9,363 nt of DNA from Thermaceae bacterium (GTDB taxonomy: Bacteria > Deinococcota > Deinococci > Deinococcales > Marinithermaceae). Below the pieces are notes generated by a model. It was not told where the DNA came from and did not search any database. It saw only the letters and a program-made list of their open reading frames with translations. The stretch spans positions 1 through 9,363 of the forward strand of contig WFXV01000033.1 in NCBI GenBank assembly GCA_015490435.1, written 5' to 3'. Below are positions 1-9,363 of this stretch, piece after piece (positions within the stretch are counted from its first letter, which is position 1; every line of letters starts with the position of its first letter). The position numbers and the translations under genes were made by a program.

Positions 1-60
1 ACGGAACACAAGGATGCGCCTTCCTTGGTAGGTGAGCCGCGCGTTCTTGTGGCTGTTCAC
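1..60 (-). CDS. IS481-family transposase, N-terminal fragment (gene continues beyond the left edge of the window)
   Basis: The reverse complement of 1-60 reads GTG AAC AGC CAC AAG AAC GCG CGG CTC ACC TAC CAA GGA AGG CGC ATC CTT GTG TTC CGT = (M)NSHKNARLTYQGRRILVFR. An MNxHK(N/H)ARLT opening is the typical N-terminus of IS481-family DDE transposases (e.g. Bordetella IS481, recalled from memory). GGAGG at 70-74 lies 7 nt upstream of the GTG. An in-frame ATG at 88-90 would add 10 aa but lacks a well-spaced SD. The ORF is too short to appear in the ORF track. Confidence 0.5.
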   Translation of the reverse strand, partial: MNSHKNARLTYQGRRILVFR

Positions 61-128
61 TGGAGCCCCTCCTCTCGTGCTGAAAGCCATGCCTTCACAG
101 GCACCAGGGTATGGGGCTCCAGTGAACA
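54..128. repeat. Perfect 16-bp inverted repeat (54-69 tgttcactggagcccc / 113-128 ggggctccagtgaaca) with a 43-nt spacer, enclosing the transposase start codon
   Basis: Read directly from the sequence: 113-128 is the exact reverse complement of 54-69. The left arm contains the putative GTG start (58-60) and abuts the SD (70-74). Confidence 0.85.
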
Positions 129-169
129 ACGTGTTGAGAGGTTACACCTAGCCCACGGCCAGAAATAGG

Positions 170-421
170 CTACCATTTACGGCGTTTATACGGACATGTA
201 GGCCTCTCGCACTTACGCCGACCTTCACGGATTGCAGCTATCTCCAGACCTGTGAGCAACTCACCGCAGACAGGGCAACGAGTGCGGGTGTAAGTAAAGC
301 TACGCCTGGCGACAAACAAATCTGAAGCCCGTGTTGCGGGGGCAAAGAAGACACTAAGCAGACGCCACAACCACCAGAGCACAGCGACCACCACCAGGGC
401 GGCCAGGAGGTAGCCGAGCAT
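170..421 (-). CDS. 83-aa hypothetical protein: N-terminal transmembrane helix plus a C-terminal Cys4 (zinc-ribbon-like) basic tail
   Basis: The ATG at 419-421 lies 4 nt after the Zot-like stop (TGA TGCC ATG). Residues 3-27 (GYLLAALVVVAVLWWLWRLLSVFFA) are hydrophobic. Cysteines are arranged C49-x2-C52 ... C71-x4-C76. Codon usage switches from GC3-rich to mixed after about codon 19 (near nt 365), so the C-terminal part may be a chimeric read-through. Confidence 0.45.
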   Translation of the reverse strand: MLGYLLAALVVVAVLWWLWRLLSVFFAPATRASDLFVARRSFTYTRTRCPVCGELLTGLEIAAIREGRRKCERPTCPYKRRKW

Positions 422-425
422 GGCA

Positions 426-1295
426 TCAGGCTACCGCAGGGATGGGGGTGGGTTGCGGTTGGAGTTTTTGTTTGAGGAGTTCGTGCGGGGGGACTTTCTT
501 GCGATAGGCCTCGGCGAGCTCGGCGAGGGTGAGGGCGGGGAGCCCGTCAGCGGGACCCGGGCCGGTTTTGCGCTGGGCGAGCTTTGACTCGTCCCAGGCC
601 AGGCCCAGGGCCTCGACCGCCGCCCGGCGCTTGGGATCGAGCTCCTTTTGCAGCTCGATGATCGGGGGCGGGAAGATCGCCCGGGTGTCGTAGCAGGCGG
701 CAGCCAGGGGGTCAAGCACCACCACATCGTTGCGGGCGATCCCCTCGAAGATCGAAGCGCTTTTTTTCTGCATCATGCCCAGGGACTCGTCCATGATGTG
801 GGTGTAGCGGATCACGGGTAGACGCCAACGGTGCTTCGGCCAGAGGAAGAGCTTGAGCCAGAAGGGGGCAGGCCGAGCCCACCAGACATGAGCCACCAGG
901 TCGCGGATCATGGTGTCGACGGAGGCATAGCGCTGGGTCGCCAAGAGCACGTCCACCCCCACCTTGCGGTGCTGGGACCAGAAGCCCAGGACCTCGGTGG
1001 GAAAGAGGCGATACTCCCGGGCGTTGAACCACATGTGGGCCTCGTCGAAGAGGAGAAGGCCCTCGTAGACGTTCAAGAGGCCCTTGTAGTCACGGATCTC
1101 CTCGATGCTGTCGGCGCGAAGGACGGCCTCGCGGTGGGACAGGCGGAAGCGGCGGCGCAGGTAGTGGTAGACGTTCTCCCGGATGAAGCCGAAGTTGGCG
1201 TAGACACGCCTGCCCTTGGCTAAGGCTTCGAGCCCCCGCTTGACCAGCATGTAGCTCTTGCCCGAGCCCGGAACACCCACGTAAGCCTCGATCAT
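426..1295 (-). CDS. Zot / gene-I-like filamentous-phage assembly ATPase (P-loop NTPase), 289 aa
   Basis: This is the true start inside the 595-aa track ORF: ATG at 1293-1295, preceded by GGAGGG (6-nt spacer) and 2 nt after the upstream gene's TAG. The N-terminus MIEAYVGVPGSGKSYMLV carries Walker A (1254-1277). LLLFDEAH is Walker B (1035-1058). This matches the usual Zot-family layout (PF05707). No hydrophobic TM segment is visible in the C-terminal half. Confidence 0.85.
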   Translation of the reverse strand: MIEAYVGVPGSGKSYMLVKRGLEALAKGRRVYANFGFIRENVYHYLRRRFRLSHREAVLRADSIEEIRDYKGLLNVYEGLLLFDEAHMWFNAREYRLFPTEVLGFWSQHRKVGVDVLLATQRYASVDTMIRDLVAHVWWARPAPFWLKLFLWPKHRWRLPVIRYTHIMDESLGMMQKKSASIFEGIARNDVVVLDPLAAACYDTRAIFPPPIIELQKELDPKRRAAVEALGLAWDESKLAQRKTGPGPADGLPALTLAELAEAYRKKVPPHELLKQKLQPQPTPIPAVA

Positions 1296-1297
1296 GG

Positions 1298-1702
1298 CTA
1301 CCCTCCGCCCCGAAGGAACTTGACGCCCTTGTAGAGGAAGATCGCGCCGTAGACCGCCGCCCAGACCGAAGCAGCAGTTAAAACCTCGGAGACCGGGAAG
1401 AAGGTGTTCAGGATCCCGAGGTAAGGGGCAAGCGCGTCGGTGTACCAGGTGGGCGGATCCGGCACCGGGGGCAGGAGGTGGGCAAGAAACCCGAGCAGCA
1501 CGAAGAAGAGGTCCACCGCGAGGTTCACGAGCAGAACGAGCAGGTCCAGGACCCAACCCAGGACAGCCCCGACCAGGGAGCCCAACGCCTGCCAGAGGGC
1601 GCCGAAGAGGCTCGAAAACCAGCCCAGGACGTGGCCGGCGGCCTGGGCGATCAGGTTCGCGATCATCTGCAGGAACGATGCGAGGGCACTCAAGGCAACC
1701 AC
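1298..1702 (-). CDS. gVI-like polytopic small membrane protein (putative minor coat / virion-cap protein), up to 134 aa
   Basis: The protein is very hydrophobic with several predicted TM helices (e.g. LGSLVGAVLGWVLDLLVLLVNLAVDLFFVLLGFLAHLL). It sits between the gIII-like and Zot-like genes, as gVI does in Ff. The start is uncertain: the GTG at 1702 overlaps the GGAGG, so TTG at 1693 or ATG at 1666 may be used instead. Confidence 0.65.
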   Translation of the reverse strand: MVALSALASFLQMIANLIAQAAGHVLGWFSSLFGALWQALGSLVGAVLGWVLDLLVLLVNLAVDLFFVLLGFLAHLLPPVPDPPTWYTDALAPYLGILNTFFPVSEVLTAASVWAAVYGAIFLYKGVKFLRGGG

Positions 1703-1917
1703 CTCCGGGAGAAAGAAGCCAAGGAAAGAGGAAAGCTCTTCTCAAGGCCGCCGGGCGCAAGGGTGAACCCCTTCGGGAACCATCCCCTCCGCGCGGCGCG
1801 TCGCCGGGAGGCGGGGGTCCTCCTGGCGTCCGGCCGTCCCACCCCAGGACCGCGCCGCGCTCCGGGGACGCTTCGCGCCCTTGCGCCCGTCGGCCCGAAG
1901 ACGAAAGGGAGAACTGA

Positions 1918-1938
1918 GGGCTTTCCGGGGGAAAGCCC
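1918..1938 (-). terminator. 9-bp perfect GC-rich hairpin (gggctttcc ggg ggaaagccc) 29 nt downstream of the gIII-like stop; candidate terminator or attenuator
   Basis: Stem 1918-1926 pairs with 1930-1938; the loop is 1927-1929. On the minus-strand RNA it is followed by UCAGUUCUCCCUUUCGUCUUC, which is only moderately U-rich. Confidence 0.3.
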
Positions 1939-1966
1939 TTGTTCCAGGATGCACAAGGTGCAGGAG

Positions 1967-3403
1967 CTACGCATGGCTGGCCCTCCGGGCGATCGCGAAG
2001 AGGAAGCCGACCATGAGGGAGGCGAGGACAATGCGACGGCCGGTGGAGGCGGCCCACTGCATCACGGGGTTGTTGCAGATGTCTATGTTGGCGGGAGGCA
2101 GGTCGGGGATCTCGAGCTGGAACTGCATGTCGCAGGAGCCGCCGCTCACCGATGGCGGCGCGGGAATCCACCGGGCCATGCCCACGGGGAAGCGGTCCTG
2201 CAGGGTATCCCACAGGTTTTGCAGATTCTGCTCGAAGTTCGTGCGGATCTGATCGAAGCGCCCGGTGGGGTCGGGGAGCTCGGGCGGTTCGAGCTGGGGG
2301 AGGTCCACAGGGGTGAGCGTGGGCTCGGTAGGATCGGGAATCTCGTCAGGGTTTTCCTCCTCTTCCGGCTGGCACATGTTGTTGGGATCGTTGGGGCAGG
2401 GGTCCGCCGAGTCCTTGAGGCCGTCGCCGTCGGTGTCCTGGTCCTGATCCACCCCGGGGCGGCTACTGGGGTCGGTGGGGTCCGTACCCGCGTCCCGCTC
2501 CGCAGCGTTGTCGTAGCCGTCGCCGTCGGGGTCGCCGTTCGGTAAAGGTTGGCTCCCCGCGTTCGAAGGGTCCGAACCGGTATCCCACTCGAACCAGTCG
2601 GGCCAGCCGTCGCCGTCGGTGTCCTCGTAGGGGTTGAAGAAGGGGTTATCGTACCACTGGTTGCCGGTAGGTGCAGGATCAAGCGTAAGGCCGGGAAGAG
2701 GCTCGGCGAAGGTCTGGGGGATGTTGCCCTGGGCATCCTGATCGCCGATGTAATCAGTAACCACTTGCTTCACGCCGTCGGCGGCGTCGGGGTGGGACTG
2801 GATCCAGTCGGGGAGGGGTGCACGGTCCACCCCACAGCCAGGACCGTAAGCATTTTGTGCAAACCAAGCTTCGATCTGACTATCACCCCAGTTGCCGTTT
2901 ACCACAGCAAACCCGGGGAAATATACGGTATCGCCGTCGCGCCGCGTGTAGTAAACATAGGTGCTGTTACATACATCGTAATACTTCAACTCCCATTTCA
3001 AGTGTGCGACCCTTTTGCTAATGCCGCCTGCAACACAATCCATGTAGCCGCCTGTTACGTAGTAGCAATAATCCCAAGCCGGGCTGAAACGAAACCAATC
3101 ATCGAGCGACGTGCCAGTAGACTTCTGCGCCTCGTTATAAAACCAGTCCAGCGCGGTAAGCACCAGGGAGGCGCCGATGACCAGGGCGCCGCCGTAGCGG
3201 ACGTAGCGGCCCCAGCGGACGGACTTCGTAAGTCGGTCACTGGTAAGTTGAATAATCTCAGGCCCCGCCAGGTCCTGAACAACCTCTCTGATACCAGGAA
3301 CAAACGGAGAACTGGGGGGTACAGGCATAGGCCGGTGCGCCAGGGCCGGGGAGAGCAAGGCCCCGGCCACCGCCAGGGCAACCAGTAGCCGGGGCACTCG
3401 CAT
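1967..3403 (-). CDS. gIII-like adsorption / minor coat protein with thrombospondin-type-3-like Ca-binding repeats, 478 aa
   Basis: It has a signal peptide (MRVPRLLVALAVAGALLSPALA/HRP) and a Cys-containing N-terminal globular region. Three DxDxDGxxD repeats are present (DTDGDGWPDWFE, DPDGDGYDNAAE, DTDGDGLKDSAD; nt about 2381-2629), followed by a Pro/Glu-rich linker. The C-terminal hydrophobic anchor plus basic tail (RRIVLASLMVGFLFAIARRASHA) resembles Ff pIII. The gene lies directly after the major coat gene (4-nt gap). Confidence 0.7.
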   Translation of the reverse strand: MRVPRLLVALAVAGALLSPALAHRPMPVPPSSPFVPGIREVVQDLAGPEIIQLTSDRLTKSVRWGRYVRYGGALVIGASLVLTALDWFYNEAQKSTGTSLDDWFRFSPAWDYCYYVTGGYMDCVAGGISKRVAHLKWELKYYDVCNSTYVYYTRRDGDTVYFPGFAVVNGNWGDSQIEAWFAQNAYGPGCGVDRAPLPDWIQSHPDAADGVKQVVTDYIGDQDAQGNIPQTFAEPLPGLTLDPAPTGNQWYDNPFFNPYEDTDGDGWPDWFEWDTGSDPSNAGSQPLPNGDPDGDGYDNAAERDAGTDPTDPSSRPGVDQDQDTDGDGLKDSADPCPNDPNNMCQPEEEENPDEIPDPTEPTLTPVDLPQLEPPELPDPTGRFDQIRTNFEQNLQNLWDTLQDRFPVGMARWIPAPPSVSGGSCDMQFQLEIPDLPPANIDICNNPVMQWAASTGRRIVLASLMVGFLFAIARRASHA

Positions 3404-3407
3404 GGCC

Positions 3408-3629
3408 TTACCCCTTGAGGAAGCGCCGGGCGAACTTGAAGGCGGTCATCAGGCCGATGGAGAGGGCGAGGACGCCCACGCCGGCCGCCGCGATCGCAGT
3501 CAGGTTGGTGGTGACCTTGTCGGCGATGGGCGCGGGGTCGATGTCGGGGCCGGCGGTCTGAGCGAAGGCCAGCGCCCCCAGGACCAGAGAGGTGCCAAGG
3601 ACCGAGAGCTTCTTGAGGAACTTCTTCAT
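3408..3629 (-). CDS. Inovirus major coat protein precursor (gVIII-like), 73 aa; predicted 23-aa signal peptide and 50-aa mature protein
   Basis: The preferred start is ATG at 3627-3629, 9 nt after GGAGG; the track ORF starts further upstream at 3662. The signal peptide MKKFLKKLSVLGTSLVLGALAFA is followed by the mature QTAGPDIDPAPIADKVTTNLTAIAAAGVGVLALSIGLMTAFKFARRFLKG. That mature protein has the acidic N-terminus, hydrophobic core and basic C-terminus of inovirus coat proteins. The segment AIAAAGVGVLAL.IGL...RFLKG matches my recollection of the Thermus phage PH75 coat protein. Confidence 0.85.
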   Translation of the reverse strand: MKKFLKKLSVLGTSLVLGALAFAQTAGPDIDPAPIADKVTTNLTAIAAAGVGVLALSIGLMTAFKFARRFLKG

Positions 3630-3681
3630 CTGCATCAACCTCCTTTCCTTTCTTTGCTCCACGCGCGGCCCTGGACGCGCG

Positions 3682-3774
3682 TTAGAGCCGCTTGAGTACG
3701 GCCCGCAGGCTGGCGAGGATCACGCCGCCCGCAAGGCCCCAGAGGTAGGCTCCCCAGATCGGCTGCCACTCCAT
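3682..3774 (-). CDS. 30-aa hydrophobic mini-protein (gVII/gIX-like minor coat candidate)
   Basis: Hand translation gives MEWQPIWGAYLWGLAGGVILASLRAVLKRL*. Its ATG shares one nt with the upstream ORF's TGA (TGATG at 3772-3776). The hydrophobic core plus basic C-terminus is typical of pVII/pIX-type proteins. Confidence 0.5.
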   Translation of the reverse strand: MEWQPIWGAYLWGLAGGVILASLRAVLKRL

Positions 3775-3881
3775 CACAGCCCCCGGAAGAGCACCCAGAG
3801 ATAGCGGTACGCCGCGAGGAAGGCGTAGGGAATGCTGGCGATCGAGACCACGGTGACCCAGGCGGTGCTCGGCTCGAACAT
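3774..3881 (-). CDS. 35-aa hydrophobic mini-protein (gVII/gIX-like minor coat candidate)
   Basis: Hand translation gives MFEPSTAWVTVVSIASIPYAFLAAYRYLWVLFRGL*. It has TGATG overlaps at both ends (3879-3883 and 3772-3776). Confidence 0.5.
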   Translation of the reverse strand: MFEPSTAWVTVVSIASIPYAFLAAYRYLWVLFRGL

Positions 3882-3985
3882 CACCAGTCCCCCACGGCCA
3901 GCACGCCGGTGAGCACGCCGAGGGTGAAGGCGAAGACCTTCAGCACCTCGACGACCTGCTCCACCGGGACCTCGGCGAGGGTCAT
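3881..3985 (-). CDS. 34-aa hydrophobic mini-protein
   Basis: Hand translation gives MTLAEVPVEQVVEVLKVFAFTLGVLTGVLAVGDW*. Its ATG overlaps the ssDNA-binding gene's stop (ATGA at 3982-3985), and its TGA overlaps the next ATG. Confidence 0.45.
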   Translation of the reverse strand: MTLAEVPVEQVVEVLKVFAFTLGVLTGVLAVGDW

Positions 3986-4254
3986 TTGGCCTTCGCCTCC
4001 CCCACCCACTCGCGCACGTAGTGGACGGTTCCGAGGCGAGGGGTGTTCTCCCTGAGGTAGACGCGGGCCCGGAAGGTCACCGGGTCCATCGGCTTCAGCG
4101 CCATCACGTCGGGGACGCTCTCGGGATCGAGGTTCAAGCGCAGGATGGGGCTTTCGTCATCGATGATCAGCTCGACCGTGTGGTAGACCTTGCCGTTATC
4201 GGCCGTGCGAGAGGTGTAGCGGACAAAGTTGCCTTTTACATAGACTCCGTTCAT
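3982..4254 (-). CDS. gV-like single-stranded-DNA-binding protein candidate, 90 aa
   Basis: Its size, its position (after Rep, before the coat genes) and a beta-rich sequence with aromatic and basic residues (GNFVRYTSRTADNGKVYHTVELII...FRARVYLRE) fit the small OB-fold ssDNA-binding proteins of inoviruses. A strong SD (GGAGG) lies 8 nt upstream of the ATG. The assignment is by synteny, not by a recognised motif. Confidence 0.55.
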   Translation of the reverse strand: MNGVYVKGNFVRYTSRTADNGKVYHTVELIIDDESPILRLNLDPESVPDVMALKPMDPVTFRARVYLRENTPRLGTVHYVREWVGEAKAK

Positions 4255-4379
4255 CTTCCTAACCTCCTTCGGTAGTGCGGATCGCCTGTAAGCGCGGTGC
4301 CTATCACCACGCGCAAGGCCCAGAGAAGAGCGCTGCCGTTATCGGCAAAGACGCGCCAGAAGCGGAGGAGCCGAAGCAT
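4251..4379 (-). CDS. 42-aa hypothetical small protein bridging Rep and the ssDNA-binding gene
   Basis: Hand translation gives MLRLLRFWRVFADNGSALLWALRVVIGTALTGDPHYRRRLGR*. The ATG overlaps the Rep TGA (TGATG, 4377-4381) and the TGA overlaps the next ATG (ATGA, 4251-4254). The ORF therefore exactly fills the 'intergenic' gap. Confidence 0.4.
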   Translation of the reverse strand: MLRLLRFWRVFADNGSALLWALRVVIGTALTGDPHYRRRLGR

Positions 4380-5752
4380 CACGCGGCCACCCCCTGATAG
4401 AGCGCAAGGCGCTCCACGTAGCGGTGCTCGAAGACGCCGCCGGCCAGGGCCTCGGGGAGCGCACGGGGTGAGGCGCGGAAGAGGCGGGCGAGGGTGCGCT
4501 CGAGGTACTTGCGGGCATAGGCGACGCGCTCAAGTGCCACGCCCTGCACCGCAGCGGCGGAGAGGATCACGCCCACGGCCTGGGCCAGAAGACCCTCAGC
4601 AGCGGCACGAAGGGGCCGGCGGACGCGCTTTAGGGGAACGCGGATTTGAGCCCAGGCGAGGATGACCTCGGTCCAAAGCGGATCTTCCGGCCAGCGGGTC
4701 TTTTGCTGATTTGCAGTCGGCACCCGCAAGCTGAGCCAATGCTTGGTGAGGTAATACCAAAGGGCACCAAGGTTCTCCACCAGGGTGGGCCAGTCGTGAA
4801 GGTCGAGAAGGCCCTTCTCCGGGTGCAAGAAGGCGGTGAGCACGTCCTTCCGTAGCTGGAACTCGACGCGCCAGACGACCGTGTTCTCGAGGTCCAACCC
4901 GAAGCTCGCCGCGTAATCGCGAAGGAGCTCCTTCGTCTCCGGCTTCTTGCGGGCCTCGGCGGTCTTGCTGTAGATCCGGGCGAGCAGCTTCTTGCTGCCG
5001 AACCGGAACGAGGTCCAGCGCGGGCCGCTAAGGTGCACCTGGGCCTCGGCGAGAGCGGAAGGCGCGGCAAGAAGCGCCGCTTCGGGAGTGCACTTAGCGG
5101 CCCCCGTGCTACTCATGGGGGGGCCGCCCGCGCCCGGGGCGGCGCTCACGCGCTCGCCGCCGGGCGCTTCCGCGGCATCCTCCAGGTAGGCTTGACGATC
5201 GCGGGCACGGGAGACGAAGCGGTAGAGGTCGGGGAGCTCGAAGGGGTTCTCCGGTGAGGCGAAGTCGGCGTAGAGGTCCACCCGGGTCACGCCGATGCGG
5301 ACCGGCTCGGGGTCCTCAAGACCGGCTCGGGCCATGAGCGCGATCAGCCGGGCCGTGATCGCGTCGACGATCTCGCGGATGTTGCCCCCAAGGGCGCGGA
5401 TATAACGGCCGTGGAGCTCAACGCGGATCTGGGGGTAATCATCCCGCCGTACTGAGGACTTCTCGGGGTCTGAGATGCCCAGGAAAAGGGCCTCGTCGCC
5501 AAAGACGAGACCGTAGCGGTAGTGGCGCACGCGGCGGATCTGGGCCCGCTCGAAGTCGCGGGGCTCGAGAGTGGCAGGAATACCAAGGTCGGAAACGTCC
5601 AGAAAGACCGGGCGATCGAGATCGGTTTCGTTGCGCTTGGCGAGAGCTAACTCAAGGCGCTCGTGGAAATCCGCAGGCAAACGGTAGCGCGGGCCCCAGG
5701 AGTACCAGAGGACCAACGTGTCTACGCCGTGGGTAAGCGTGAGGGTTCTCAT
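4379..5752 (-). CDS. Rolling-circle replication initiation protein, Rep_trans family (RstA / gII functional analogue), 457 aa (466 aa if the ATG at 5779 is used)
   Basis: Motifs VTRVDLYADF (5273-5287 region) and LLARIYSKTAEARKK ... VVWRVEFQLRKD (Tyr codon at 4970-4972) match the R.D...D and R.Y.K..E ... WR.E signature of PF02486-type initiators, which are used by CTXphi-like filamentous phages and pT181-type plasmids. The ATG at 5750-5752 has GAGGA 5 nt upstream; the upstream ATG at 5777-5779 has no good SD. Confidence 0.8.
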   Translation of the reverse strand: MRTLTLTHGVDTLVLWYSWGPRYRLPADFHERLELALAKRNETDLDRPVFLDVSDLGIPATLEPRDFERAQIRRVRHYRYGLVFGDEALFLGISDPEKSSVRRDDYPQIRVELHGRYIRALGGNIREIVDAITARLIALMARAGLEDPEPVRIGVTRVDLYADFASPENPFELPDLYRFVSRARDRQAYLEDAAEAPGGERVSAAPGAGGPPMSSTGAAKCTPEAALLAAPSALAEAQVHLSGPRWTSFRFGSKKLLARIYSKTAEARKKPETKELLRDYAASFGLDLENTVVWRVEFQLRKDVLTAFLHPEKGLLDLHDWPTLVENLGALWYYLTKHWLSLRVPTANQQKTRWPEDPLWTEVILAWAQIRVPLKRVRRPLRAAAEGLLAQAVGVILSAAAVQGVALERVAYARKYLERTLARLFRASPRALPEALAGGVFEHRYVERLALYQGVAA

Positions 5753-5785
5753 GATTATCCTCGGGTGTAGGGTAAGCATGAAGGG

Positions 5786-6727
5786 GTGCGCCCCCTTTGG
5801 CTCCTTTTGCTCTTCTTGCTCGCGGCCTGCGGCGCCGACCAGGGCCTTCCGGCGGAGCCGCTTCGCTTCGTGGAGGCGAACCTACCGCCCGCCTACCTGG
5901 GCGAGCCCTACCGGGTCGAGCTCGTCGCCGCCGGGGGGGTGCGGCCCTACCGGTACGAGAGCAAGGGGAAGCTCCCCGAGGGGCTCGCCTTCAAGGACGG
6001 GGTGATCGCCGGCACCCCGAAGGCCAAGGGCGAGGCCCGCTTCGAGGTGACGGTGCGGGACGCGGGGCTCTCGGCGGTGACCCGCACCTTCACCCTCCGG
6101 GTCACCGACCCGCCGCCCCCCGCCTTTCGCTTCGCCCTGCCGCCGGTGGCGGTGGCCGACCCCTTCATCGTGGTGGCCAGGCTCGAGGGCCGGCGCACCC
6201 TGGGGTTCGAGGCCCGCTTCGAGCTGGGCGCGCTCCGCCCCGACCTCAAGACGCTGAAGGTGGCCGAGGGCGCCCTCTACCTGGTCCGCTACGACGAGAA
6301 GACCGGTGTGCTCGGACTCGACCTCGCCTACAAGAAGCCCGCCTCCGGCGGCGAGGTCTTCCGCCTCACCCTCGTCCCCGAGAAGAAGGCGCTCTATAAG
6401 CGAATCCCCTACCGGGCGCGCTTCCTCGACGAGAAGGGGAAGCCCTTCGCCGCCTCTGAGCGGGTCGCTTTTGCTGAGGAGGGCTCTGGGAAGTACGCTT
6501 TTTCCGACCTGGTCCGGCTCGCCCGGAACTGGGGGAAGCGGGCGAAGAAGGACGAAGCGCTCGAGGGCGACCTGAACAAGGACGGCCGGGTGGACGAGGC
6601 CGACCTCGCCCTCCTCAAAGCCGACTACCGCTGGGCCTGGCCGGAGAAGAAGGCGAAGCCCCCTCAGTCCCAGGGCACGCCCCGGAAGAGCTCGAGCACG
6701 CCCGAGGAGAGTTCCTCCTTGCCGTAG
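5786..6727 (+). CDS. Lipoprotein with a He_PIG-type putative Ig domain and a C-terminal dockerin/EF-hand-like Ca-binding motif, 313 aa
   Basis: A GTG start gives MRPLWLLLLFLLAAC, i.e. a signal peptide with lipobox L-A-A-C. LPPAYLGEPYRVELVAAGGVRPYRYESKGKLPEGLAFKDGVIAGTPKAKGEARFEVTVRD follows the LP.G..G..Y...L.A.GG..PY......G.LP.GL.....G.I.GTP pattern of PF05345. GDLNKDGRVDEADLALLKADY resembles a dockerin type-I repeat. Codon usage is GC3-rich and host-like. Confidence 0.75.
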   Translation: MRPLWLLLLFLLAACGADQGLPAEPLRFVEANLPPAYLGEPYRVELVAAGGVRPYRYESKGKLPEGLAFKDGVIAGTPKAKGEARFEVTVRDAGLSAVTRTFTLRVTDPPPPAFRFALPPVAVADPFIVVARLEGRRTLGFEARFELGALRPDLKTLKVAEGALYLVRYDEKTGVLGLDLAYKKPASGGEVFRLTLVPEKKALYKRIPYRARFLDEKGKPFAASERVAFAEEGSGKYAFSDLVRLARNWGKRAKKDEALEGDLNKDGRVDEADLALLKADYRWAWPEKKAKPPQSQGTPRKSSSTPEESSSLP

Positions 6728-7605
6728 TCGGCGGGCTCCATCACCTGGGGCGGGCAGCTTTCCACGCAGGCGTTGCAGCCGGTGCAGCGGGCGAGCTCGA
6801 GCTCGAGCACCCGCTCCTCCCCCTCCCGAAAGCGCCGGATCGCCGAGGTGGGGCAGACGTTCTGGCAGACCGGGCAGAGGGTGCAGCCCTCCTCGACCCG
6901 CACCCCCGGCCAGCGCACCTCGCTCGCCCGCTCGGCCGCGAGCCGGCGGAGGCGAAGCTCGGCGGGGAGGGTCTCCCCCTCCTCGGGGACGAGCTCGGGG
7001 GGCGGCTCGGGGAGGGCCTCGGCGGCCACCCGTCGGGCGCTTTGGAAAAGCCCCCGGAAAAGCTCGCGCCGCCCCACCGCGGGGCCTTCTAAGGGCTCGG
7101 TGGTGACCTCTACCTCGAGCTCCGGGTAGTACCGCCTTGCCTCCCGGATCGCGGCCTCGAGCCGCCTGGGCACCTCGGGGCCGCCGATCTTGCAGCCATC
7201 ACAGTCGCCCCGCGCCAGGGTGAGGGACCCGAGCCGGCTTCCCGCCCAGGCGAGGAGGCCGGGCGTGAGCCGTCCCAGGCAGAGCACCTCCTCCCCCTGC
7301 CCCGGGGCCCGGCTGCATGTGAGCCGCCCCCGGCCCTTGGCGAGCGCCTCCTGCAGGGGGCCGAGGGGGTACTCGAGGGCGACGCCGGGGCAGACCTGAA
7401 CGCAAAGCCCGCACCCGGTGCAGTGGGCGTCGTCGATCTCGACGGTGTAGCCGGAGAGGTCCACGGCCTGGTGGGGGCAGGCGTCGGCGCAGGCGGAGCA
7501 GCCCCCCACCGCGTGGCGCTCGAGCAGGCAGCGCTCGGGGGAAAAGCGCGGGGTGGGGTCGGTGAGCTTGAGGGCGAGTTCGAGGAGGTTGTCCCAAAGC
7601 CCCAT
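6664..7605 (-). CDS. 4Fe-4S dicluster-domain protein (two ferredoxin-like modules flanking a Cys-containing middle region), 313 aa
   Basis: There are four cluster motifs: CSACADACP, CTGCGLCVQVCP, CTLCPVCQNVCP and CTGCNACVESCP. The middle region carries extra Cys residues (LTCSRAP...VLCLG...GDCDGCKIGG). Confidence 0.8.
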   Translation of the reverse strand: MGLWDNLLELALKLTDPTPRFSPERCLLERHAVGGCSACADACPHQAVDLSGYTVEIDDAHCTGCGLCVQVCPGVALEYPLGPLQEALAKGRGRLTCSRAPGQGEEVLCLGRLTPGLLAWAGSRLGSLTLARGDCDGCKIGGPEVPRRLEAAIREARRYYPELEVEVTTEPLEGPAVGRRELFRGLFQSARRVAAEALPEPPPELVPEEGETLPAELRLRRLAAERASEVRWPGVRVEEGCTLCPVCQNVCPTSAIRRFREGEERVLELELARCTGCNACVESCPPQVMEPADYGKEELSSGVLELFRGVPWD

Positions 7606-7638
7606 GCCCTGCCAGCTTAGCGCAGCCCGGGTCCGGGC

Positions 7639-7667
7639 TTGACATAAGTAAGTATTTACTTATAAAC
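7639..7667 (+). promoter_or_regulatory. Sigma-A-type promoter: TTGACA (7639-7644), 16-nt spacer, TATAAA (7661-7666), upstream of the SPW-repeat/TetR genes
   Basis: The -35 is perfect and the -10 matches 5 of 6, within the only AT-rich patch of the host-like region. It lies about 25 nt upstream of the GGGAGGTG SD and the ATG at 7690. Confidence 0.6.
7644..7663. promoter_or_regulatory. 20-bp palindromic operator candidate ATAAGTAA-gtat-TTACTTAT, filling the promoter spacer
   Basis: The two 8-bp arms are perfect (7644-7651 and 7656-7663). The palindrome overlaps the -35/-10 interval of the promoter that drives an operon containing a TetR-family gene, which is the typical autoregulatory arrangement. 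Confidence 0.5.
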
Positions 7668-7689
7668 TGGAGGCGAAGGGAGGTGGGCC

Positions 7690-8028
7690 ATGAAGAGCAC
7701 GTTGGAATGGCTGAACGTCATTCTCGGCGCCTGGCTCTTCCTCTCGCCCTGGATCCTGGGGTTCACCGGCACCTCCGCAGCCGCGTGGAGCGCCTGGATC
7801 GTCGGCGCGCTCGTGGTGATCTTCGCCCTCTGGGCGCTTTCCGACCGGGCGAGCTGGGAGGACTGGGTCAACTTCGTGGTGGCCATCGTCGGCTTTCTGA
7901 CCCCGTGGCTCTTTGGCTTTGCCGGCGTGGCCGCGGCTGCCTGGAACCTCTGGATCGTGAGCCTCGCCATCGCCATCGTCGCCCTCTGGGCGGCCTACAC
8001 GCCGGCCGAGCCCAAGGCGACCTCGTAA
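7690..8028 (+). CDS. SPW-repeat small integral membrane protein, 112 aa
   Basis: It contains two copies of the W...LG.WLF.SPW.LGF-type repeat (WLNVILGAWLFLSPWILGF and WVNFVVAIVGFLTPWLFGF) and four predicted TM helices. The SD GGGAGGTG lies 4 nt upstream of the ATG. Confidence 0.8.
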   Translation: MKSTLEWLNVILGAWLFLSPWILGFTGTSAAAWSAWIVGALVVIFALWALSDRASWEDWVNFVVAIVGFLTPWLFGFAGVAAAAWNLWIVSLAIAIVALWAAYTPAEPKATS

Positions 8029-8044
8029 ACTTGGGAGCGGAGTG

Positions 8045-8069
8045 GGGGCGGGGGCAGGCCCCCCGCCCC
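8045..8069 (+). other. 10-bp all-G/C hairpin (ggggcggggg caggc cccccgcccc) between the SPW-repeat stop and the TetR ATG
   Basis: 8045-8054 pairs perfectly with 8060-8069. It begins 17 nt after the TAA at 8026-8028 and has no U-tract downstream. Confidence 0.4.
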
Positions 8070-8077
8070 GATGCCTA

Positions 8078-8665
8078 ATGGAGCTGGGAGTCGCGCGCAA
8101 ACGGCAAAGCGGCGCCGAGCGCCGCCGGCAGATCCTCGAGGCGGCCGAGCGGATCTGCCTCGAGGAGGGGATCGCCGCGCTCAGGACCGAGAAGATCGCC
8201 CGCCGGGTGGGGCTCTCCCCGGGGGGCATCTTCCGCCACTACCCCAGCAAGCGGGCGATCCTCACCGCCCTGACCCGGGCGCTCCTCGCCCGGCTCGAGG
8301 CCACCACCCCGGCGGAGGGGGCGCCGCTCGAGTGGCTTCGGGCCTTCGTGGTGAACCGGGTGCGGGCCTTTCAGGAAGACCCCGGGCTCAGGCTGCTCTT
8401 TTCCCCCGAGTTCGAGCACGCCCTGCCGAAGGCGGCCAAGGCCGAGCTGAAAAGGAGCTTGCGGGCCACCTGGGACCGGCTGGTGGCGGCGGTCGAGGAG
8501 GGGCAGCGCCGGGGCGAGATCCGGGCGGACCTCGCCGCCGAGGAGCTGGCGGCGGCGGTGGCCGCGCTGGTGCAGGCGGCGACCCAGCCCCTGCTCGCCG
8601 AGGTGATCCGGGAGAGCGACCCCGAGCGGGTCTGGCAGACCGTCCGGGACCTGCTCGCCCGCTAG
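8078..8665 (+). CDS. TetR/AcrR-family transcriptional regulator, 195 aa (207 aa if the GTG at 8042 is used)
   Basis: The N-terminal [51 protein letters not shown] matches the TetR_N signature (T...IA...G.S.G..Y.HF.SK..L). The start is ambiguous: the GTG at 8042 has GGGAG 4 nt upstream but places the GC hairpin inside the coding sequence, while the ATG at 8078 gives a typical N-terminal length. Confidence 0.8.
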
Positions 8666-9363
8666 AGCAGGTCCCGGATCGCCTCCAGGAAGCGCTCGAA
8701 GCCGGAGAAATCGAGCTGCTGCTGGTTGTCGGAGAGGGCCACCAGGGGATTGGGGTGCACCTCGACGTGGACGCCGTCCACACCGGCGGCGAGCGCCGCC
8801 CGGGCCATCGGGGCGAGGAGGTCGGTGCGCCCGGCGGCGTGGGTGACGTCCACGATCACCGGCAGGTGGGTCTCCTGCTTGGCCAGCACCGCCGCCTGGA
8901 GGTCGAGGGTGTTCCGGGTCCACTTCTCGAAGGTGCGGATCCCCCGCTCGATGAGGACAACCTGGTCGTTGCCCTGGGCGAGGATGTACTCGGCGGCGTA
9001 GAACCACTCCTCGACGGTGGCGCTCATGCCCCGCTTCAAAAAGACCGGCCGGCCCGAGCGCCCCACCTCCCGGAGTAGGGCGAAGTTCTGCATGTTGCGG
9101 GCGCCGATCTGGAGGATGTCGGCGTACTCGGCGACGAGCTCGACGTCGCGGGTGTCCATCACCTCGGTGACGAAGGCCATGCCGTGCCGGCGGGCGGCGG
9201 CGGCGCCGAGCTCGAGCCCCCGCTTCCCGAGCCCCTGGAAGGCGTAGGGGCTGGTCCGGGGCTTAAAGGCCCCGCCCCGGAGGATCTCGACCCCGCGCTC
9301 GGCCAGGAAGGCGGCGGCTTCCTCGATCTGGGCCTCGCTCTCGATCGAGCAGGGCCCGGCCAC
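8662..9363 (-). CDS. aroF: 3-deoxy-7-phosphoheptulonate (DAHP) synthase, class I-beta; 5' end cut by the window edge
   Basis: GPCSIES...[18 protein letters not shown]...VTEVMD...[10 protein letters not shown]...LKRG...[14 protein letters not shown]...[10 protein letters not shown] is the conserved core of class I-beta DAHP synthases (Thermotoga/Bacillus AroA(G) type). The ORF is open to nt 9363. KDO8P synthase is the closest paralogue, but the FKPRTSPY and GIRTFE motifs favour DAHPS. Confidence 0.85.

What the first reader, a model, noticed from the sequence alone, without database searches (positions are those of the whole stretch)
170..5779. Ff-type filamentous (inovirus-like) prophage module in a Thermus-like chromosome
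About eleven co-directional genes reproduce the classical inovirus order. They run: Rep_trans initiator, small ORF, gV-like ssDNA-binding protein, three ~30-aa hydrophobic ORFs, major coat protein, gIII-like adsorption protein, gVI-like membrane protein, Zot/gI-like ATPase, small TM protein. Almost every junction is a stop/start overlap. The right flank switches immediately to GC3-rich host-like genes. Filamentous phages of Deinococcota are very poorly characterised at the genome level; to my knowledge PH75 is known mainly through its coat-protein structure. A full gene set of a thermophilic inovirus, and how it integrates and is secreted, would therefore be valuable. No secretin, repressor, tyrosine/serine integrase or obvious origin/packaging region is present in the window.
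Basis: partly seen in the sequence, partly recalled or inferred. Interest (0 to 1): 0.85.

Follow-up and report, generated by a model that had tools for sequence, protein, structure and literature searches.

The report
Thermaceae filamentous prophage with RNA-guided integration
This is an integrated filamentous (M13-like) virus in a hot-spring Thermaceae bacterium, a divergent relative of the published Thermus phages phiOH3 and Zuza8; near-identical and related copies suggest that it inserts using an IS110-type recombinase steered by a small guide RNA, which I did not find reported for these viruses.

Summary
Window 147-5776 (minus strand) is a compact inovirus genome. In order it holds a rolling-circle Rep, an OB-fold ssDNA-binding protein, three ~30-aa membrane proteins, a PH75-like major coat, an adsorption protein, gVI, a Zot ATPase and a small TM/zinc-ribbon protein. 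It is truly integrated. Related genomes carry the empty site, a 38-bp gap between a CPBP gene and the He_PIG gene, and the insertion duplicates only 2 bp.

The novelty claim is outdated. phiOH3, phiOH16, Zuza8 and Zuza27 (genus Thomixvirus) have the same gene order, and such proviruses have been described. This one is a divergent lineage: Zot is 67% identical, most other proteins 30-47%, and gV has no match.

The missing integrase lies just beyond the window. An IS481-like element is inserted at position 146/147. An almost identical contig without it continues into an IS110-family transposase gene.

Between orf83 and that gene lies a ~100-nt scaffold that is 84-99% conserved in nine relatives. 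Two hypervariable patches in it match each copy's host flanks (25/28 pairs, 2/5040 permutations; two later copies 4/4). Two constant patches match the element's ends. This is the signature of a bridge/seek RNA.

The window's own copy fits its site poorly. The gIII-gVI spacer holds a conserved long hairpin, a likely packaging or origin signal.

The parts
1..146 (-). End of an inserted IS, IS481-like. The terminus TGTAACC... lies at 146. An ORF starts with GTG at 60 (VNSHKNARLTYQGRRILV...) and runs off the window. A 16-nt perfect inverted repeat (54-69 / 113-128) covers the start codon.
   Evidence: This sequence is absent from L007, L008 and L009, which match the window only down to 147. Contig L006 breaks exactly there. 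The terminus abuts CCTAGC, which fits the NCTAGN target reported for IS481. The family assignment from the N-terminal HKNARLT motif rests on my memory. NCBIfam and the plasmid search gave nothing.
147..169 (-). Phage DNA between the orf83 stop and the IS insertion point. It holds the CCTAGC target hexamer (147-152) and the leader just upstream of the guide-RNA gene. The rest of that gene lies beyond the IS, outside the window.
   Evidence: The stretch is identical to L007 3273-3295. L007 then continues with the conserved non-coding RNA region and the transposase gene.
170..421 (-). orf83: a small protein with an N-terminal TM helix and a C-terminal CxxC...CxxxxC zinc-ribbon-like motif. Its function is unknown.
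   Evidence: The ORF is kept at the same position in all clade members (31-95% aa identity) and in a Zuza-like provirus, L017 (E 9e-8). It has no significant family hit.
426..1295 (-). Zot/pI-type morphogenesis ATPase. The homologous gene is annotated 'IV' in phiOH3.
   Evidence: Pfam Zot E 3.4e-19 and phrog_20922 E 3.5e-107. It is 66-67% identical to the phiOH3, phiOH16, Zuza8 and Zuza27 proteins.
1298..1702 (-). gVI-like minor coat / membrane protein.
   Evidence: phrog_37052 E 1.7e-9. It is 29-34% identical to gene VI of phiOH3 and the Zuza phages, at the same position.
1703..1966 (-). Non-coding gIII-gVI spacer. It has a 9-bp GC-rich hairpin (about 1918-1938), a likely terminator after gIII. 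It also has a long imperfect hairpin of ~150 nt (about 1746-1895), a candidate packaging signal and/or replication origin.
   Evidence: The DNA fold gives -82.9 kcal/mol, z -5.5, and 0 of 200 shuffles fold as well. A similar hairpin sits at the same position in phiOH3 and Zuza8. The consensus of eight clade members has 65 pairs, 11 of them with compensatory changes, and a nearly invariant core.
1967..3403 (-). gIII-like adsorption protein, with a signal peptide, calcium-binding TSP3 repeats and a C-terminal anchor.
   Evidence: phrog_36046 E 2e-61 and Pfam TSP3_bac E 3.3e-9. It is 35-37% identical to gene III of phiOH3 and the Zuza phages.
3408..3635 (-). Major coat protein precursor: a leader ending ...AFA, then a ~50-aa mature protein.
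   Evidence: PF05356 at 24.5 bits (cut-off 23.5). The match to the PH75 coat (1hgv) has E 2.9e-12; I count 28 of 45 residues identical. It is 48% identical to Zuza8 VIII, leader included.
3682..3774 (-). 30-aa hydrophobic ORF.
   Evidence: It is conserved across the clade. It is 47% identical to an unannotated ORF of Zuza8 (L003 2921-3010, E 1e-7).
3774..3881 (-). gIX-like 35-aa minor coat protein.
   Evidence: It is 42% identical to phiOH3 gene IX (E 2.6e-5) and is conserved in the clade.
3881..3985 (-). gVII-like 34-aa minor coat protein.
   Evidence: It is 45% identical to Zuza8 gene VII (E 2.9e-5) and is conserved in the clade.
3982..4254 (-). gV-position 90-aa OB-fold protein, a probable ssDNA-binding protein.
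   Evidence: It has no Pfam, PHROG or NCBIfam hit and no similarity to gV of phiOH3 or the Zuza phages. Only 14 homologues exist, all from this clade. The AF2 model has pLDDT 87.9 and a b1-b2-b3-helix-b4-b5 topology. The top Foldseek hits are bacterial and mitochondrial SSBs, with E about 1e-3 and TM 0.5-0.68.
4251..4382 (-). 43-codon ORF between Rep and gV; doubtful as a gene.
   Evidence: It has no family hits. Only its C-terminal ~20 codons are conserved in L023, L024 and L054, and public gene calls leave it out.
4379..5752 (-). Rolling-circle replication initiator (gII-like), a distant Rep_trans relative with a conserved ARIYSK motif.
   Evidence: phrog_33635 E 8e-47. It is 33-35% identical to gene II of phiOH3 and the Zuza phages. 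Pfam Rep_trans gives only 14.8 bits. A profile search finds 2359 relatives, and one of them (P0097) passes the Rep_trans threshold. The only significant Foldseek hits are to 4CIJ, with E 6e-5, but the model is poor (pLDDT 55).
5753..5776 (-). Phage end on the gII side. It holds TACCCT (5774-5769), read here as the -10 half of a split gII promoter, and the 2-bp crossover core CT (5776-5775). Host DNA starts at 5777.
   Evidence: Homology with L009, L024, L030, L054 and L055 ends here. Comparison with the empty site fixes the boundary. The promoter reading is an inference from the contiguous TTGACA-N17/18-TAnnnT upstream of gII in circular phiOH3, Zuza8 and Zuza27.
5786..6727 (+). Host He_PIG/Ig-domain lipoprotein gene, which marks the right flank. 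Its start codon is only 9 nt from the crossover core.
   Evidence: Pfam He_PIG is listed in the public gene calls. Homologues occur in Thermus, Meiothermus and Thermaceae genomes. In relatives without the prophage the gene sits 38 bp from a divergent CPBP gene.

Best explanation
Window 147-5776 is the body of a ~6.7-kb temperate filamentous phage. It belongs to order Tubulavirales and is a divergent relative of the Thomixvirus phages phiOH3, phiOH16, Zuza8 and Zuza27. It is integrated in the 38-bp gap between a CPBP-protease gene and the He_PIG gene of an uncultured Thermaceae bacterium.

Shown:
- The gene set and its order.
- The integrated state.
- The exact ends and a 2-bp duplicated core.
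- Empty-site alleles in related genomes.

The phage's integration module is not in the window, because an IS481-like element sits at 146/147. In a 99.97%-identical contig without that IS (L007), and in eight related prophages, orf83 is followed by a ~100-nt conserved non-coding region and then by a convergent gene for a 304-aa IS110-family (DEDD) transposase. That gene ends about 50 bp from the other phage end.

Inferred mechanism:
- The non-coding region encodes a bridge/seek-type guide RNA with two internal-loop modules.
- One module carries constant sequences that match the two phage ends, so it recognises the donor.
- The other module carries hypervariable sequences that match the host DNA on either side of each insertion, so it recognises the target.
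- The recombinase therefore inserts the circular replicative form at an RNA-specified site through a CT/AG core.
- Integration also splits the gII promoter. The -35 TTGACA lies at the transposase end and the -10 TACCCT at the gII end. This would keep replication off in the prophage without a repressor.
- After excision, the Rep protein starts rolling-circle replication. The OB-fold protein coats the ssDNA. The long gIII-gVI hairpin serves as packaging and/or origin signal. The Zot ATPase drives extrusion, presumably through a host secretin.

The window's own copy lies at a site that fits its guides poorly and has an IS next to its RNA gene. It may therefore be an off-target insertion that is now hard to mobilise.
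For: Identity as an inovirus:
- Zot, coat, Rep, gIII and gVI hits.
- The same gene order, including the ~250-bp III-VI gap, as four sequenced Thermus inoviruses.

Integration:
- Five independent assemblies span the gII/He_PIG junction.
- Relatives L013, L015 and L016 have the CPBP and He_PIG genes 38 bp apart. Joining the two junctions with one copy of AG restores exactly 38 bp.
- Nine related prophages lie in different host contexts with the same ends.

Transposase:
- It matches NF033542 'IS110 family RNA-guided transposase' at 183 bits (cut-off 140), and PF01548 plus PF02371.
- It is 40% identical to the transposases of phiOH16 and the Zuza phages.

Guide RNA:
- The scaffold is 94-99% identical in the seven closest relatives and 84-85% in L030 and L055, where the adjacent coding DNA is 66-94% identical overall. 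The two guide patches are only 29-57% identical in all relatives but one.
- The 4-nt patch next to the constant CUA/UAG pairs perfectly with the host 4-mer next to the transposase end in L008, L024, L025, L029 and L030. In total 25 of 28 positions pair, and 2 of 5040 permutations do as well.
- Two prophages found afterwards confirmed the rule. L054 gives 4/4 and 7/8, and L055 gives 4/4 and 8/8.
- The second patch matches the other flank in L030 (8/8), in L024 (7 of 8 with a 1-nt offset) and in L009 (6/8).
- The constant patches CUUACCC and AUAUACCCCAC match the two element ends.
- The consensus fold gives two modules, each with a 12x12-nt internal loop.
- Zuza-type proviruses show the same logic upstream of their transposase gene: five of six match their right flank 8/8, with three different guides.

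Other parts:
- The spacer hairpin.
- The OB fold of the gV-like protein.
Against: - The transposase gene and the RNA gene are not in the window. They are inferred from L007 (99.97% identical over 3295 nt) and from relatives.
- There are no expression or binding data.
- The RNA does not fold better than shuffled sequence (z 0.15 and 1.07).
- Stem covariation is minimal, because the scaffold hardly varies.
- No Rfam family matches.
- The transcribed strand is not settled. Guide polarity, module order and the exact parallel with the Zuza-type RNA favour the phage-sense strand, which is convergent with the transposase gene. One invariant G-U pair favours the other strand. The tool's terminator scan did not list the hairpin plus T-run that I see after the RNA.
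- The window lineage itself matches its own site poorly: 2/4 plus one wobble on one side and 5/8 on the other.
- No circular junction was found in any fetched contig, so activity is unproven.
- The split-promoter idea rests on hexamer inspection only.
Confidence: 0.8

Rival explanations
1. It is a defective, immobilised remnant of a filamentous phage that can no longer excise or produce virions.
For: An IS481-like element separates the phage body from its transposase and RNA module. The insertion site fits the copy's own guides poorly. The same junction is fixed in several samples. No circular junction was seen.
Against: Every phage ORF is intact and under visible constraint. For example, gV is 96% identical in protein to L009's, where the DNA of that region is ~86% identical. 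An allele without the IS exists (L007). A 6-bp target duplication would leave the RNA gene intact on the far side of the IS. Inovirus capsids tolerate longer genomes (established knowledge for Ff phages).
Confidence: 0.3
2. It integrates with the IS110-family transposase, but target choice is made by the protein alone, or by short homology between the phage and the host site, and no guide RNA is involved. This was the implicit view for Neisseria Nf and for Zuza8.
For: All sites share a T-AG (or C-AG) core region and are G+C-rich, so some of the match could reflect a general site preference. The RNA fold is not unusually stable.
Against: The four variable nucleotides differ between copies and track the flanks: GGGG, TTGC, CGAC, ACGT, CGGG, AGAG and CCGG. 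Permutation gives 2 of 5040, and two later loci were predicted correctly. The variable patches lie in a scaffold that is more conserved than the coding DNA. The protein matches the NCBIfam model for RNA-guided IS110 transposases. Bridge and seek RNAs are established for this family (PMC11208160, PMC11187229).
Confidence: 0.1
3. The block is an episomal replicative form wrongly joined to host DNA by metagenome assembly, and not a prophage.
For: The contigs are short metagenome assemblies, and several end at the IS.
Against: The same phage-host junction occurs in five assemblies from different samples. Relatives sit inside 28-34-kb host contigs with host genes on both sides. The empty site is restored to the nucleotide.
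Confidence: 0.02
4. It integrates by host XerC/XerD at a dif-like site, as CTXphi does, or by a tyrosine or serine integrase encoded elsewhere.
Against: All nine relatives carry the IS110-type gene at the same end. The insertion sites are scattered intergenic positions and not one dif locus. There is no tRNA. No repeat longer than the 2-bp core flanks the element.
Confidence: 0.02

Closest known systems
Thermus phages phiOH3, phiOH16, Zuza8 and Zuza27 (Tubulavirales, Paulinoviridae, Thomixvirus) and the Thermus proviruses described with them (PMC4763002, PMC11437467)
   Same: The gene order II-V-VII-IX-VIII-III-(~250-bp hairpin spacer)-VI-Zot is the same. Zot is 66-67% identical and the coat is PH75-like. 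Genome size is ~6.7 kb. There is no secretin gene. An IS110-family transposase gene lies at the end opposite gII. The att crossover falls between the -35 and -10 of the gII promoter.
   Different: DNA similarity is only 68.7% over 12% of the query. Rep, gIII and gVI are 29-37% identical, and the gV-position protein is unrelated in sequence. The transposase is only 40% identical and its gene is inverted, so it converges on the guide-RNA gene instead of following it. orf83 and the third 30-aa ORF are not annotated in the published genomes. The host is an uncultured Thermaceae lineage, and a relative is in Oceanithermus.
Thermus phage PH75 (coat protein structures 1HGV, 1HGZ, 1HH0)
   Same: The mature coat aligns end to end with the 46-aa PH75 coat, with E 2.9e-12 and 28 of 45 residues identical.
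   Different: Only the PH75 coat is available for comparison, because no PH75 genome is public (PMC4763002). The window's coat has a cleavable-looking leader.
IS110/IS1111-family insertion sequences with bridge RNA or seekRNA (IS621, ISEc11; PMC11208160, PMC11187229)
   Same: There is a DEDD transposase with a GL-P----SG motif. The ncRNA has two internal-loop modules, one matching the element ends and one matching the target. Each guide includes a 2-nt core, and the core is CT as in IS621. Insertion makes no longer target duplication. The ends carry short subterminal inverted repeats (TACCCCAC / TACCCTAC).
   Different: The cargo is a whole 5.6-kb virus instead of nothing. The transposase is short (304 aa). 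The RNA gene most likely lies on the strand opposite the transposase gene, at the tail of the phage operon. The guided stretch on one side is short, 4 variable plus 3 constant nt. No Rfam model recognises the RNA.
Neisseria filamentous prophages Nf/MDA (Kawai et al. 2005, as cited in PMC11437467 and PMC4763002)
   Same: It is a filamentous prophage with the replication gene at one end and an IS110-family (Piv/Irg-type) transposase gene at the other. The phage is thought to integrate by its own transposase.
   Different: The host phylum differs, and the structural genes showed no detectable similarity in my searches. I did not examine Nf sequences, so whether they carry a guide RNA was not tested here.
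Ff phages (M13, fd, f1)
   Same: The overall module order, the small overlapping genes, a pI/Zot ATPase, a helical major coat with a basic C-terminus, and an intergenic hairpin region are shared.
   Different: There is no pIV secretin gene. Rep is of the Rep_trans-like type and not the Ff gpII type. The ssDNA-binding protein does not match Ff gVp in sequence. The phage is temperate and uses a transposase. The Zot protein has no obvious membrane helix.

Membership tests
Inovirus genome (order Tubulavirales) | pI/Zot-type morphogenesis ATPase | tested here: met
   PF05707 at 69.5 bits against a cut-off of 20.3, E 3.4e-19; phrog_20922 E 3.5e-107.
Inovirus genome (order Tubulavirales) | Small helical major coat protein with a hydrophobic core and a basic C-terminus | tested here: met
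   PF05356 at 24.5 bits against a cut-off of 23.5; PH75 coat (1hgv) E 2.9e-12.
Inovirus genome (order Tubulavirales) | Compact co-directional order: replication, ssDNA binding, minor coats, major coat, adsorption, gVI, ATPase | tested here: met
   ORF map compared with four annotated Thermus inoviruses.
Inovirus genome (order Tubulavirales) | Filamentous virion with circular ssDNA, released by extrusion | not testable with these tools
   This needs EM and ssDNA isolation. It has been shown for the relatives phiOH3 and Zuza8/27 (PMC4763002, PMC11437467).
Genus Thomixvirus (phiOH3 group) | Homologues of the phiOH3 proteins in the same order | tested here: met
   Seven of the eight phiOH3 genes have a detectable homologue at the same position. 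The exception is gV.
Genus Thomixvirus (phiOH3 group) | Genome-wide nucleotide similarity at genus or species level. The 95% species and roughly 70% genus conventions are from my knowledge of ICTV practice. | tested here: not met
   blastn finds 68.7% identity over only 12% of the 6-kb query. The element is best treated as a new species and probably a new genus beside Thomixvirus.
Rep_trans rolling-circle initiators (PF02486) | Score above the Pfam gathering threshold | tested here: not met
   14.8-14.9 bits against a cut-off of 29.6, and only for three clade members.
Rep_trans rolling-circle initiators (PF02486) | Homology through intermediates, and the Rep_trans fold | tested here: inconclusive
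   The profile search gives 2359 hits. P0097 passes Rep_trans at 30.9 bits and P0119 reaches 23 bits, while seven other sampled hits show nothing. The only Foldseek hits with E<=1e-3 are 4CIJ chains (RepSTK1), but the model has pLDDT 55 and TM is 0.26-0.41.
Ff gVp-type ssDNA-binding protein | Sequence match to a phage ssDNA-binding family | tested here: not met
   No Pfam, PHROG or NCBIfam hit, and no similarity to gV of phiOH3 or the Zuza phages.
Ff gVp-type ssDNA-binding protein | Small OB-fold protein encoded directly after the Rep gene | tested here: met
   AF2 model with pLDDT 87.9 and a five-strand OB topology. The Foldseek list is dominated by SSBs, but E is only ~1e-3.
IS110/IS1111 RNA-guided recombination system | DEDD transposase (PF01548 plus PF02371) | tested here: met
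   In L007, not in the window: NF033542 at 183 bits against a cut-off of 140. The gene is present in all nine related prophages.
IS110/IS1111 RNA-guided recombination system | Adjacent non-coding region that folds into two internal-loop modules | tested here: inconclusive
   The consensus structure has two 12x12 loops and 93% of cells pair. Only one compensatory change is seen, and the folding energy equals that of shuffles.
IS110/IS1111 RNA-guided recombination system | Loop sequences complementary to the target flanks, and covarying with them | tested here: met
   25 of 28 positions pair, with 2 of 5040 permutations as good. L054 and L055 were predicted correctly. The second guide matches 6-8 of 8 in five loci. 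The window lineage itself matches poorly.
IS110/IS1111 RNA-guided recombination system | Loop sequences matching both element ends | tested here: met
   CUUACCC matches GGGTA+AG at one end. AUAUACCCCAC matches AG+ATACCCCAC at the other end, with one core mismatch.
IS110/IS1111 RNA-guided recombination system | Insertion through a 2-nt core without a longer target duplication | tested here: met
   The occupied and empty sites differ by the element plus one extra AG.
IS110/IS1111 RNA-guided recombination system | RNA gene co-directional with the transposase gene, and RNA bound by the protein | not testable with these tools
   The strand is inferred only. Guide polarity and the parallel with the Zuza-type RNA point to the opposite strand. 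Binding needs experiments.
IS481-family insertion sequence (window 1-146) | DDE (rve) transposase | not testable with these tools
   Only 20 codons lie in the window, and there is no NCBIfam hit.
IS481-family insertion sequence (window 1-146) | A terminus beginning TGT and insertion at NCTAGN | tested here: met
   The terminus TGTAACC abuts CCTAGC at 147-152. The NCTAGN consensus is quoted in PMC3053399. The other IS end, and so the duplication, was not seen.

The most novel reading that the evidence does not exclude
Filamentous phages of the Thermaceae are natural cargo of bridge-RNA recombination systems. The whole 5.6-kb viral genome sits between a ~100-nt guide-RNA gene and one end of an IS110-type element. 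Closely related phages retarget their integration site by changing a handful of guide nucleotides. Integration splits the replication-gene promoter, so lysogeny needs no repressor.

In this lineage the RNA gene would be transcribed with the phage operon and converge on the transposase gene, a layout not described for IS110 or IS1111 elements. The system would also be a compact, thermostable, programmable recombinase (304 aa) that is already proven in nature to move multi-kilobase DNA.
Probability: 0.7. Interest if true: 0.75.

Novelty: new variant of a known kind. Interest (0 to 1): 0.58.

Why it matters
As a prophage it adds a divergent lineage, probably a new genus, to a small sequenced group of thermophilic inoviruses, and it extends their hosts to uncultured Thermaceae and Oceanithermus.

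The more useful result is mechanistic.
- The phage integrates with an IS110-type recombinase whose target appears to be written in a short RNA.
- No repressor is seen, possibly because integration splits the gII promoter.
- The cis-acting packaging or origin signal is most likely the gIII-gVI hairpin.

I found no paper linking guide RNAs to inovirus integration in the searchable literature. If confirmed, this would be a natural case of a bridge-RNA system carrying a virus. It would also offer a small thermostable system of possible use for genome engineering.

Tried and rejected
- A tRNA as attachment site: none in the window.
- Flanking direct or inverted repeats as att ends: nothing useful, because the core is only 2 bp.
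- Rfam at E<=1 on the window, L007 and four phage genomes: only two chance-level hits.
- Exact-protein look-ups for an empty site: these returned only occupied alleles. Homologues had to be used instead.
- IMG/VR holds no member of this clade, only phiOH3/Zuza-like contigs.
- Rep profile against PDB sequences: no hit.
- The IS481-like piece against fetched loci, plasmids and NCBIfam: no hit.
- The copy's ideal programmed target (AGCC-T-AG-AATCGAGG) in the fetched DNA: none found.
- A circular phage junction in the fetched contigs: none found.
- I first read the RNA on the transposase-sense strand, an IS1111-like layout. I then moved to the phage-sense strand. Only there do the guides carry the core at their 3' ends as in IS621, and only there do the modules line up with the Zuza-type RNA. 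I hold this at about 75-80%.
- The promoter/terminator scan of L007 found no promoter and did not list the hairpin plus T-run after the RNA.
- I considered XerCD/dif integration, assembly chimerism and protein-only targeting, and rejected them (see rivals).

Full report
**1. What is in the window**

All candidate genes lie on the minus strand between 5779 and 170.
- The Zot ATPase (426-1295) passes Pfam (PF05707, 69.5 bits, cut-off 20.3).
- The major coat (3408-3635) also passes Pfam (PF05356, 24.5 bits, cut-off 23.5).
- PHROG families give much stronger matches: Zot E 3.5e-107, Rep E 8e-47, gIII E 2e-61, gVI E 1.7e-9.
- The mature coat aligns end to end with the PH75 coat of PDB 1HGV (E 2.9e-12).
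- G+C is 0.55-0.69 in the block and 0.70-0.76 in the right flank.

Small corrections are given in the observation check.

**2. It belongs to a known group**

A blastn search of phage genomes finds only Thermus phages OH3, phiOH16, Zuza8 and Zuza27, at 68.7% identity over 12% of the query. Their annotation shows the same order: II, V, VII, IX, VIII, III, a ~250-bp gap, VI, then 'IV', which is the Zot-like gene.

Protein comparison with these four phages:

| Window protein | Result |
|---|---|
| Zot | 66-67% identical |
| Coat | 40-48% |
| gIII | 35-37% |
| Rep | 33-35% |
| gVI | 29-34% |
| Two ~35-aa ORFs | match VII and IX |
| Third ~30-aa ORF | matches an unannotated ORF of Zuza8 |
| gV-position protein | no match |

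The literature already covers several of these points.
- It describes these phages.
- It notes that phiOH16, Zuza8 and Zuza27 carry an IS110-family transposase gene.
- It reports Thermus proviruses with the endonuclease gene at one end and the transposase gene at the other, as in Neisseria Nf (PMC11437467, PMC4763002).

**3. Individual proteins**

*gV-position protein.* Only 14 homologues exist among 5.8 billion proteins, and all belong to this clade. It models confidently (pLDDT 87.9) as a five-strand OB fold with a helix between strands 3 and 4. Its structural neighbours are almost all SSB proteins, although the E-values are only ~1e-3.

*Rep.*
- It reaches only 14.8 bits on Rep_trans.
- A profile search finds 2359 relatives. 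One of these passes the Rep_trans threshold.
- The structural model is poor (pLDDT 55). Its only significant fold matches are to the RepSTK1 rolling-circle initiator 4CIJ.
- I read it as a distant Rep_trans-type initiator.

*Small ORFs.* orf83 (a TM helix plus a zinc-ribbon-like motif) is conserved through the clade and in a Zuza-like provirus. The 43-codon ORF between Rep and gV is not conserved.

**4.

The 264-bp gIII-gVI spacer folds, as ssDNA of the packaged strand, into a small GC-rich hairpin and a ~150-nt hairpin (z -5.5). phiOH3 and Zuza8 have an equivalent hairpin at the same place. Across eight clade members the core is almost invariant, and 11 pairs show compensatory changes. It is the best candidate for the packaging signal and/or an origin.

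**5. Source, ends and empty site**

Exact-protein look-ups place the window in hot-spring metagenome contigs and in MAG GCA_027048655.1.
- Contig L007 is 99.97% identical to the window from 3441 down to 147 and then diverges.
- Two Thermaceae MAG prophages, L008 and L009, match the window exactly between 5780 and 147.
- Beyond 147, all three continue with a conserved spacer and a reverse-oriented gene for a 304-aa IS110-family transposase. It scores 183 bits on NF033542 (cut-off 140) and is 40% identical to the phiOH16 and Zuza enzymes.
- Homology among the three stops about 50 bp beyond that gene's start, after ...AAGTGGGGTATCT.

The window instead continues from 146 with TGTAACC... and an ORF beginning VNSHKNARLT. 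The terminus abuts CCTAGC, which fits the NCTAGN target of IS481. I read this as an IS481-like insertion; the family call is partly from memory. It explains why contigs break at this point and why no integrase is visible.

In L007 the transposase end is followed by a CPBP-protease gene. In relatives whose He_PIG protein is 71-88% identical (L013, L015, L016), the CPBP-protease gene and the He_PIG gene are divergent neighbours 38 bp apart. Joining the two junctions with a single AG rebuilds a 38-bp spacer that is collinear with theirs. The element is therefore integrated, its ends are known to the nucleotide, and the only duplication is a 2-bp core: AG in transposase orientation, CT in phage orientation. 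Without the IS the full length is about 6.7 kb.

**6. The guide RNA**

The ~100-nt stretch between the orf83 stop and the transposase stop is far more conserved than the genes around it.
- The scaffold is 98% identical to L009's, against 88% for the transposase coding DNA.
- It is 84-85% identical in L030 and L055, against 69-71% for the same coding DNA.
- Two patches are the exception, at only 29-57% identity in all relatives but one.

*The variable patches.* More clade members came from the metagenome scan, so the patches could be compared with each copy's flanks.

The 4-nt patch next to a constant CUA pairs with the four host bases next to T-AG at the transposase end. L024 has C-AG there instead of T-AG.

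| Locus | Guide patch | Host 4-mer | Pairs |
|---|---|---|---|
| L008 | CCCC | GGGG | 4/4 |
| L025 | GCAA | TTGC | 4/4 |
| L024 | GUCG | CGAC | 4/4 |
| L030 | ACGU | ACGT | 4/4 |
| L029 | CCCG | CGGG | 4/4 |
| L009 | ACCG | CGGG | 3/4 |
| L007 (window lineage) | GGCU | GGGC | 2/4 plus one wobble |

- In total 25 of 28 positions pair, and only 2 of 5040 permutations reach this.
- The second patch follows a constant AG and reads like the host DNA after the gII-side end.
- It matches 8/8 in L030, 7 of 8 with a 1-nt offset in L024, 6/8 in L009 and 5/8 in the window lineage.

Two complete prophages found afterwards through Rep homologues served as a blind test. L054 lies in a 34-kb contig and L055 in an Oceanithermus MAG. 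L054 gives 4/4 and 7/8, and L055 gives 4/4 and 8/8.

*The constant patches.* These match the element's own ends: CUUACCC against GGGTA-AG, and AUAUACCCCAC against AG-ATACCCCAC.

*The fold.* RNAalifold draws two modules, each with a 12x12-nt internal loop and a short apical stem. This is the architecture and logic of the bridge RNAs and seekRNAs of IS110/IS1111 elements (PMC11208160, PMC11187229).

*Weak points.*
- The folding energy is no better than that of shuffles.
- There is almost no stem covariation.
- No Rfam family matches.
- There are no expression data.

**7. Which strand, and comparison with Zuza-type phages**

In Zuza-type phages and proviruses, the 275-nt spacer upstream of the transposase gene contains the same kind of modules. 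Its first loop, GU[NNNN]UAAGCU, is the reverse complement of AG|CTTACC[NN] at the right flank. The match is 8/8 in five of six proviruses, with three different guides. The sixth, L046, sits at a site that fits a relative's guides instead.

Read on the phage-sense strand, the window-clade RNA has exactly that format.
- The target module comes first and the donor module second.
- The 5' loops end in CU (AU in the donor module).
- The 3' loops read G-N6-AG-N3.
- The core lies at the 3' end of each guide, as in IS621.

Read on the transposase-sense strand, the guide polarity is inverted. Pair variation also favours the phage-sense strand. Eight pair positions show A-C that becomes G-U on that strand, against two positions the other way; several of the eight come from the divergent, poorly aligned L027 and L029. 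One invariant G-U disagrees. A GGCCG-GCCCA-CGGCC hairpin followed by TTTTT comes after the donor module on the phage-sense strand (sequence), but the scan tool did not list it.

I therefore favour, at about 75-80%, an RNA transcribed at the tail of the phage operon and converging on the transposase gene. That layout differs from canonical IS110 and IS1111 elements and from the Zuza phages.

**8. Split promoter (inference)**

In circular phiOH3, Zuza8 and Zuza27, gII is preceded by TTGACA-N17/18-TAnnnT. In this clade the TTGACA lies at the transposase end and TACCCT at the gII end. They are 18 nt apart once the ends are joined, and integration separates them. No -35-like hexamer is apparent by eye in the host DNA upstream of 5774. 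This would silence replication in the prophage and could explain the absence of a repressor gene.

**9. State of the window's copy**

All ORFs are intact, yet the copy looks compromised in two ways.
- Its guides fit its own site badly. One of them is identical to the guide of L054, which fits L054's site. The copy is therefore either an off-target insertion or one whose guide has since changed.
- The IS481-like element lies between orf83 and the RNA gene.

No circular junction was found. Whether the copy is still mobile is open.

**10. Verdict**

The finding is real. Following it outward gave two further results.
- A precise integration site.
- Comparative evidence that these thermophilic inoviruses integrate by an RNA-guided IS110-type system, with a variant gene layout in this lineage.

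I did not find the second point reported in the searchable literature.

Noticed in passing
window 1-146: There is an IS481-like insertion. Its terminus TGTAACC abuts CCTAGC. An ORF starts at 60 (VNSHKNARLT...). A perfect 16-nt inverted repeat (54-69 / 113-128) would sequester the start codon. The weak Rfam 'mir-284' hit at 50-130 is just this hairpin.
   Followed up: partly
L023 1099-1620 (sister prophage, Zot 97% identical): A ~0.6-kb insert between gII and gV encodes a Mom-family protein (PF25680, 38.3 bits, cut-off 27.1). This would be a DNA-modification or anti-restriction type cargo gene carried by an inovirus.
   Followed up: partly
L003 (Zuza8), L004 (Zuza27), L002 (phiOH16); proviruses L033, L036, L038, L040, L045, L046: The 275-nt spacer upstream of the transposase gene of the published Thermus inoviruses contains bridge-RNA-like modules, and their variable nucleotides match the provirus flanks. 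L046 sits at a site that fits the guides of L033 and L040 and not its own.
   Followed up: partly
L003 2921-3010 and 6494-6607; L017 5509-5679: Published Thermus inovirus genomes seem to contain two unannotated small genes. One is a homologue of the window's 30-aa ORF, between IX and VIII. The other is a homologue of orf83, after the Zot-like gene; this match is clear in L017 and marginal in Zuza8.
   Followed up: partly
L024 505-1875: The Rep gene of this relative has a 33-residue in-frame tandem duplication in the low-complexity linker (…GLALLAAPSALAEAQVHLSGPR…). In all models this region is disordered.
   Followed up: no
window 5777-5788: The He_PIG gene's GTG start is only 9 nt from the crossover core. 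In L009, L054 and L055 the gII end likewise abuts the start of a divergent host gene. Insertions therefore sit in promoter regions and must replace the neighbour's upstream sequence.
   Followed up: no
window 426-1295 and 170-421: The Zot-like ATPase has no obvious membrane helix, unlike Ff pI. The conserved orf83 directly downstream has one, plus a zinc-ribbon-like motif. It may be the membrane partner of the ATPase, but this is speculation.
   Followed up: no
window 2400-2630: gIII contains three ~90-96-nt-spaced repeats that encode bacterial thrombospondin type 3 (calcium-binding) motifs (PF18884, E 3.3e-9).
   Followed up: no
window 6664-9363: The right flank holds ordinary host genes: a 4Fe-4S protein, an SPW-repeat membrane protein, a TetR regulator and a DAHP synthase. 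Relative L016 lacks the SPW and TetR pair between the Fe-S and DAHP synthase genes.
   Followed up: no
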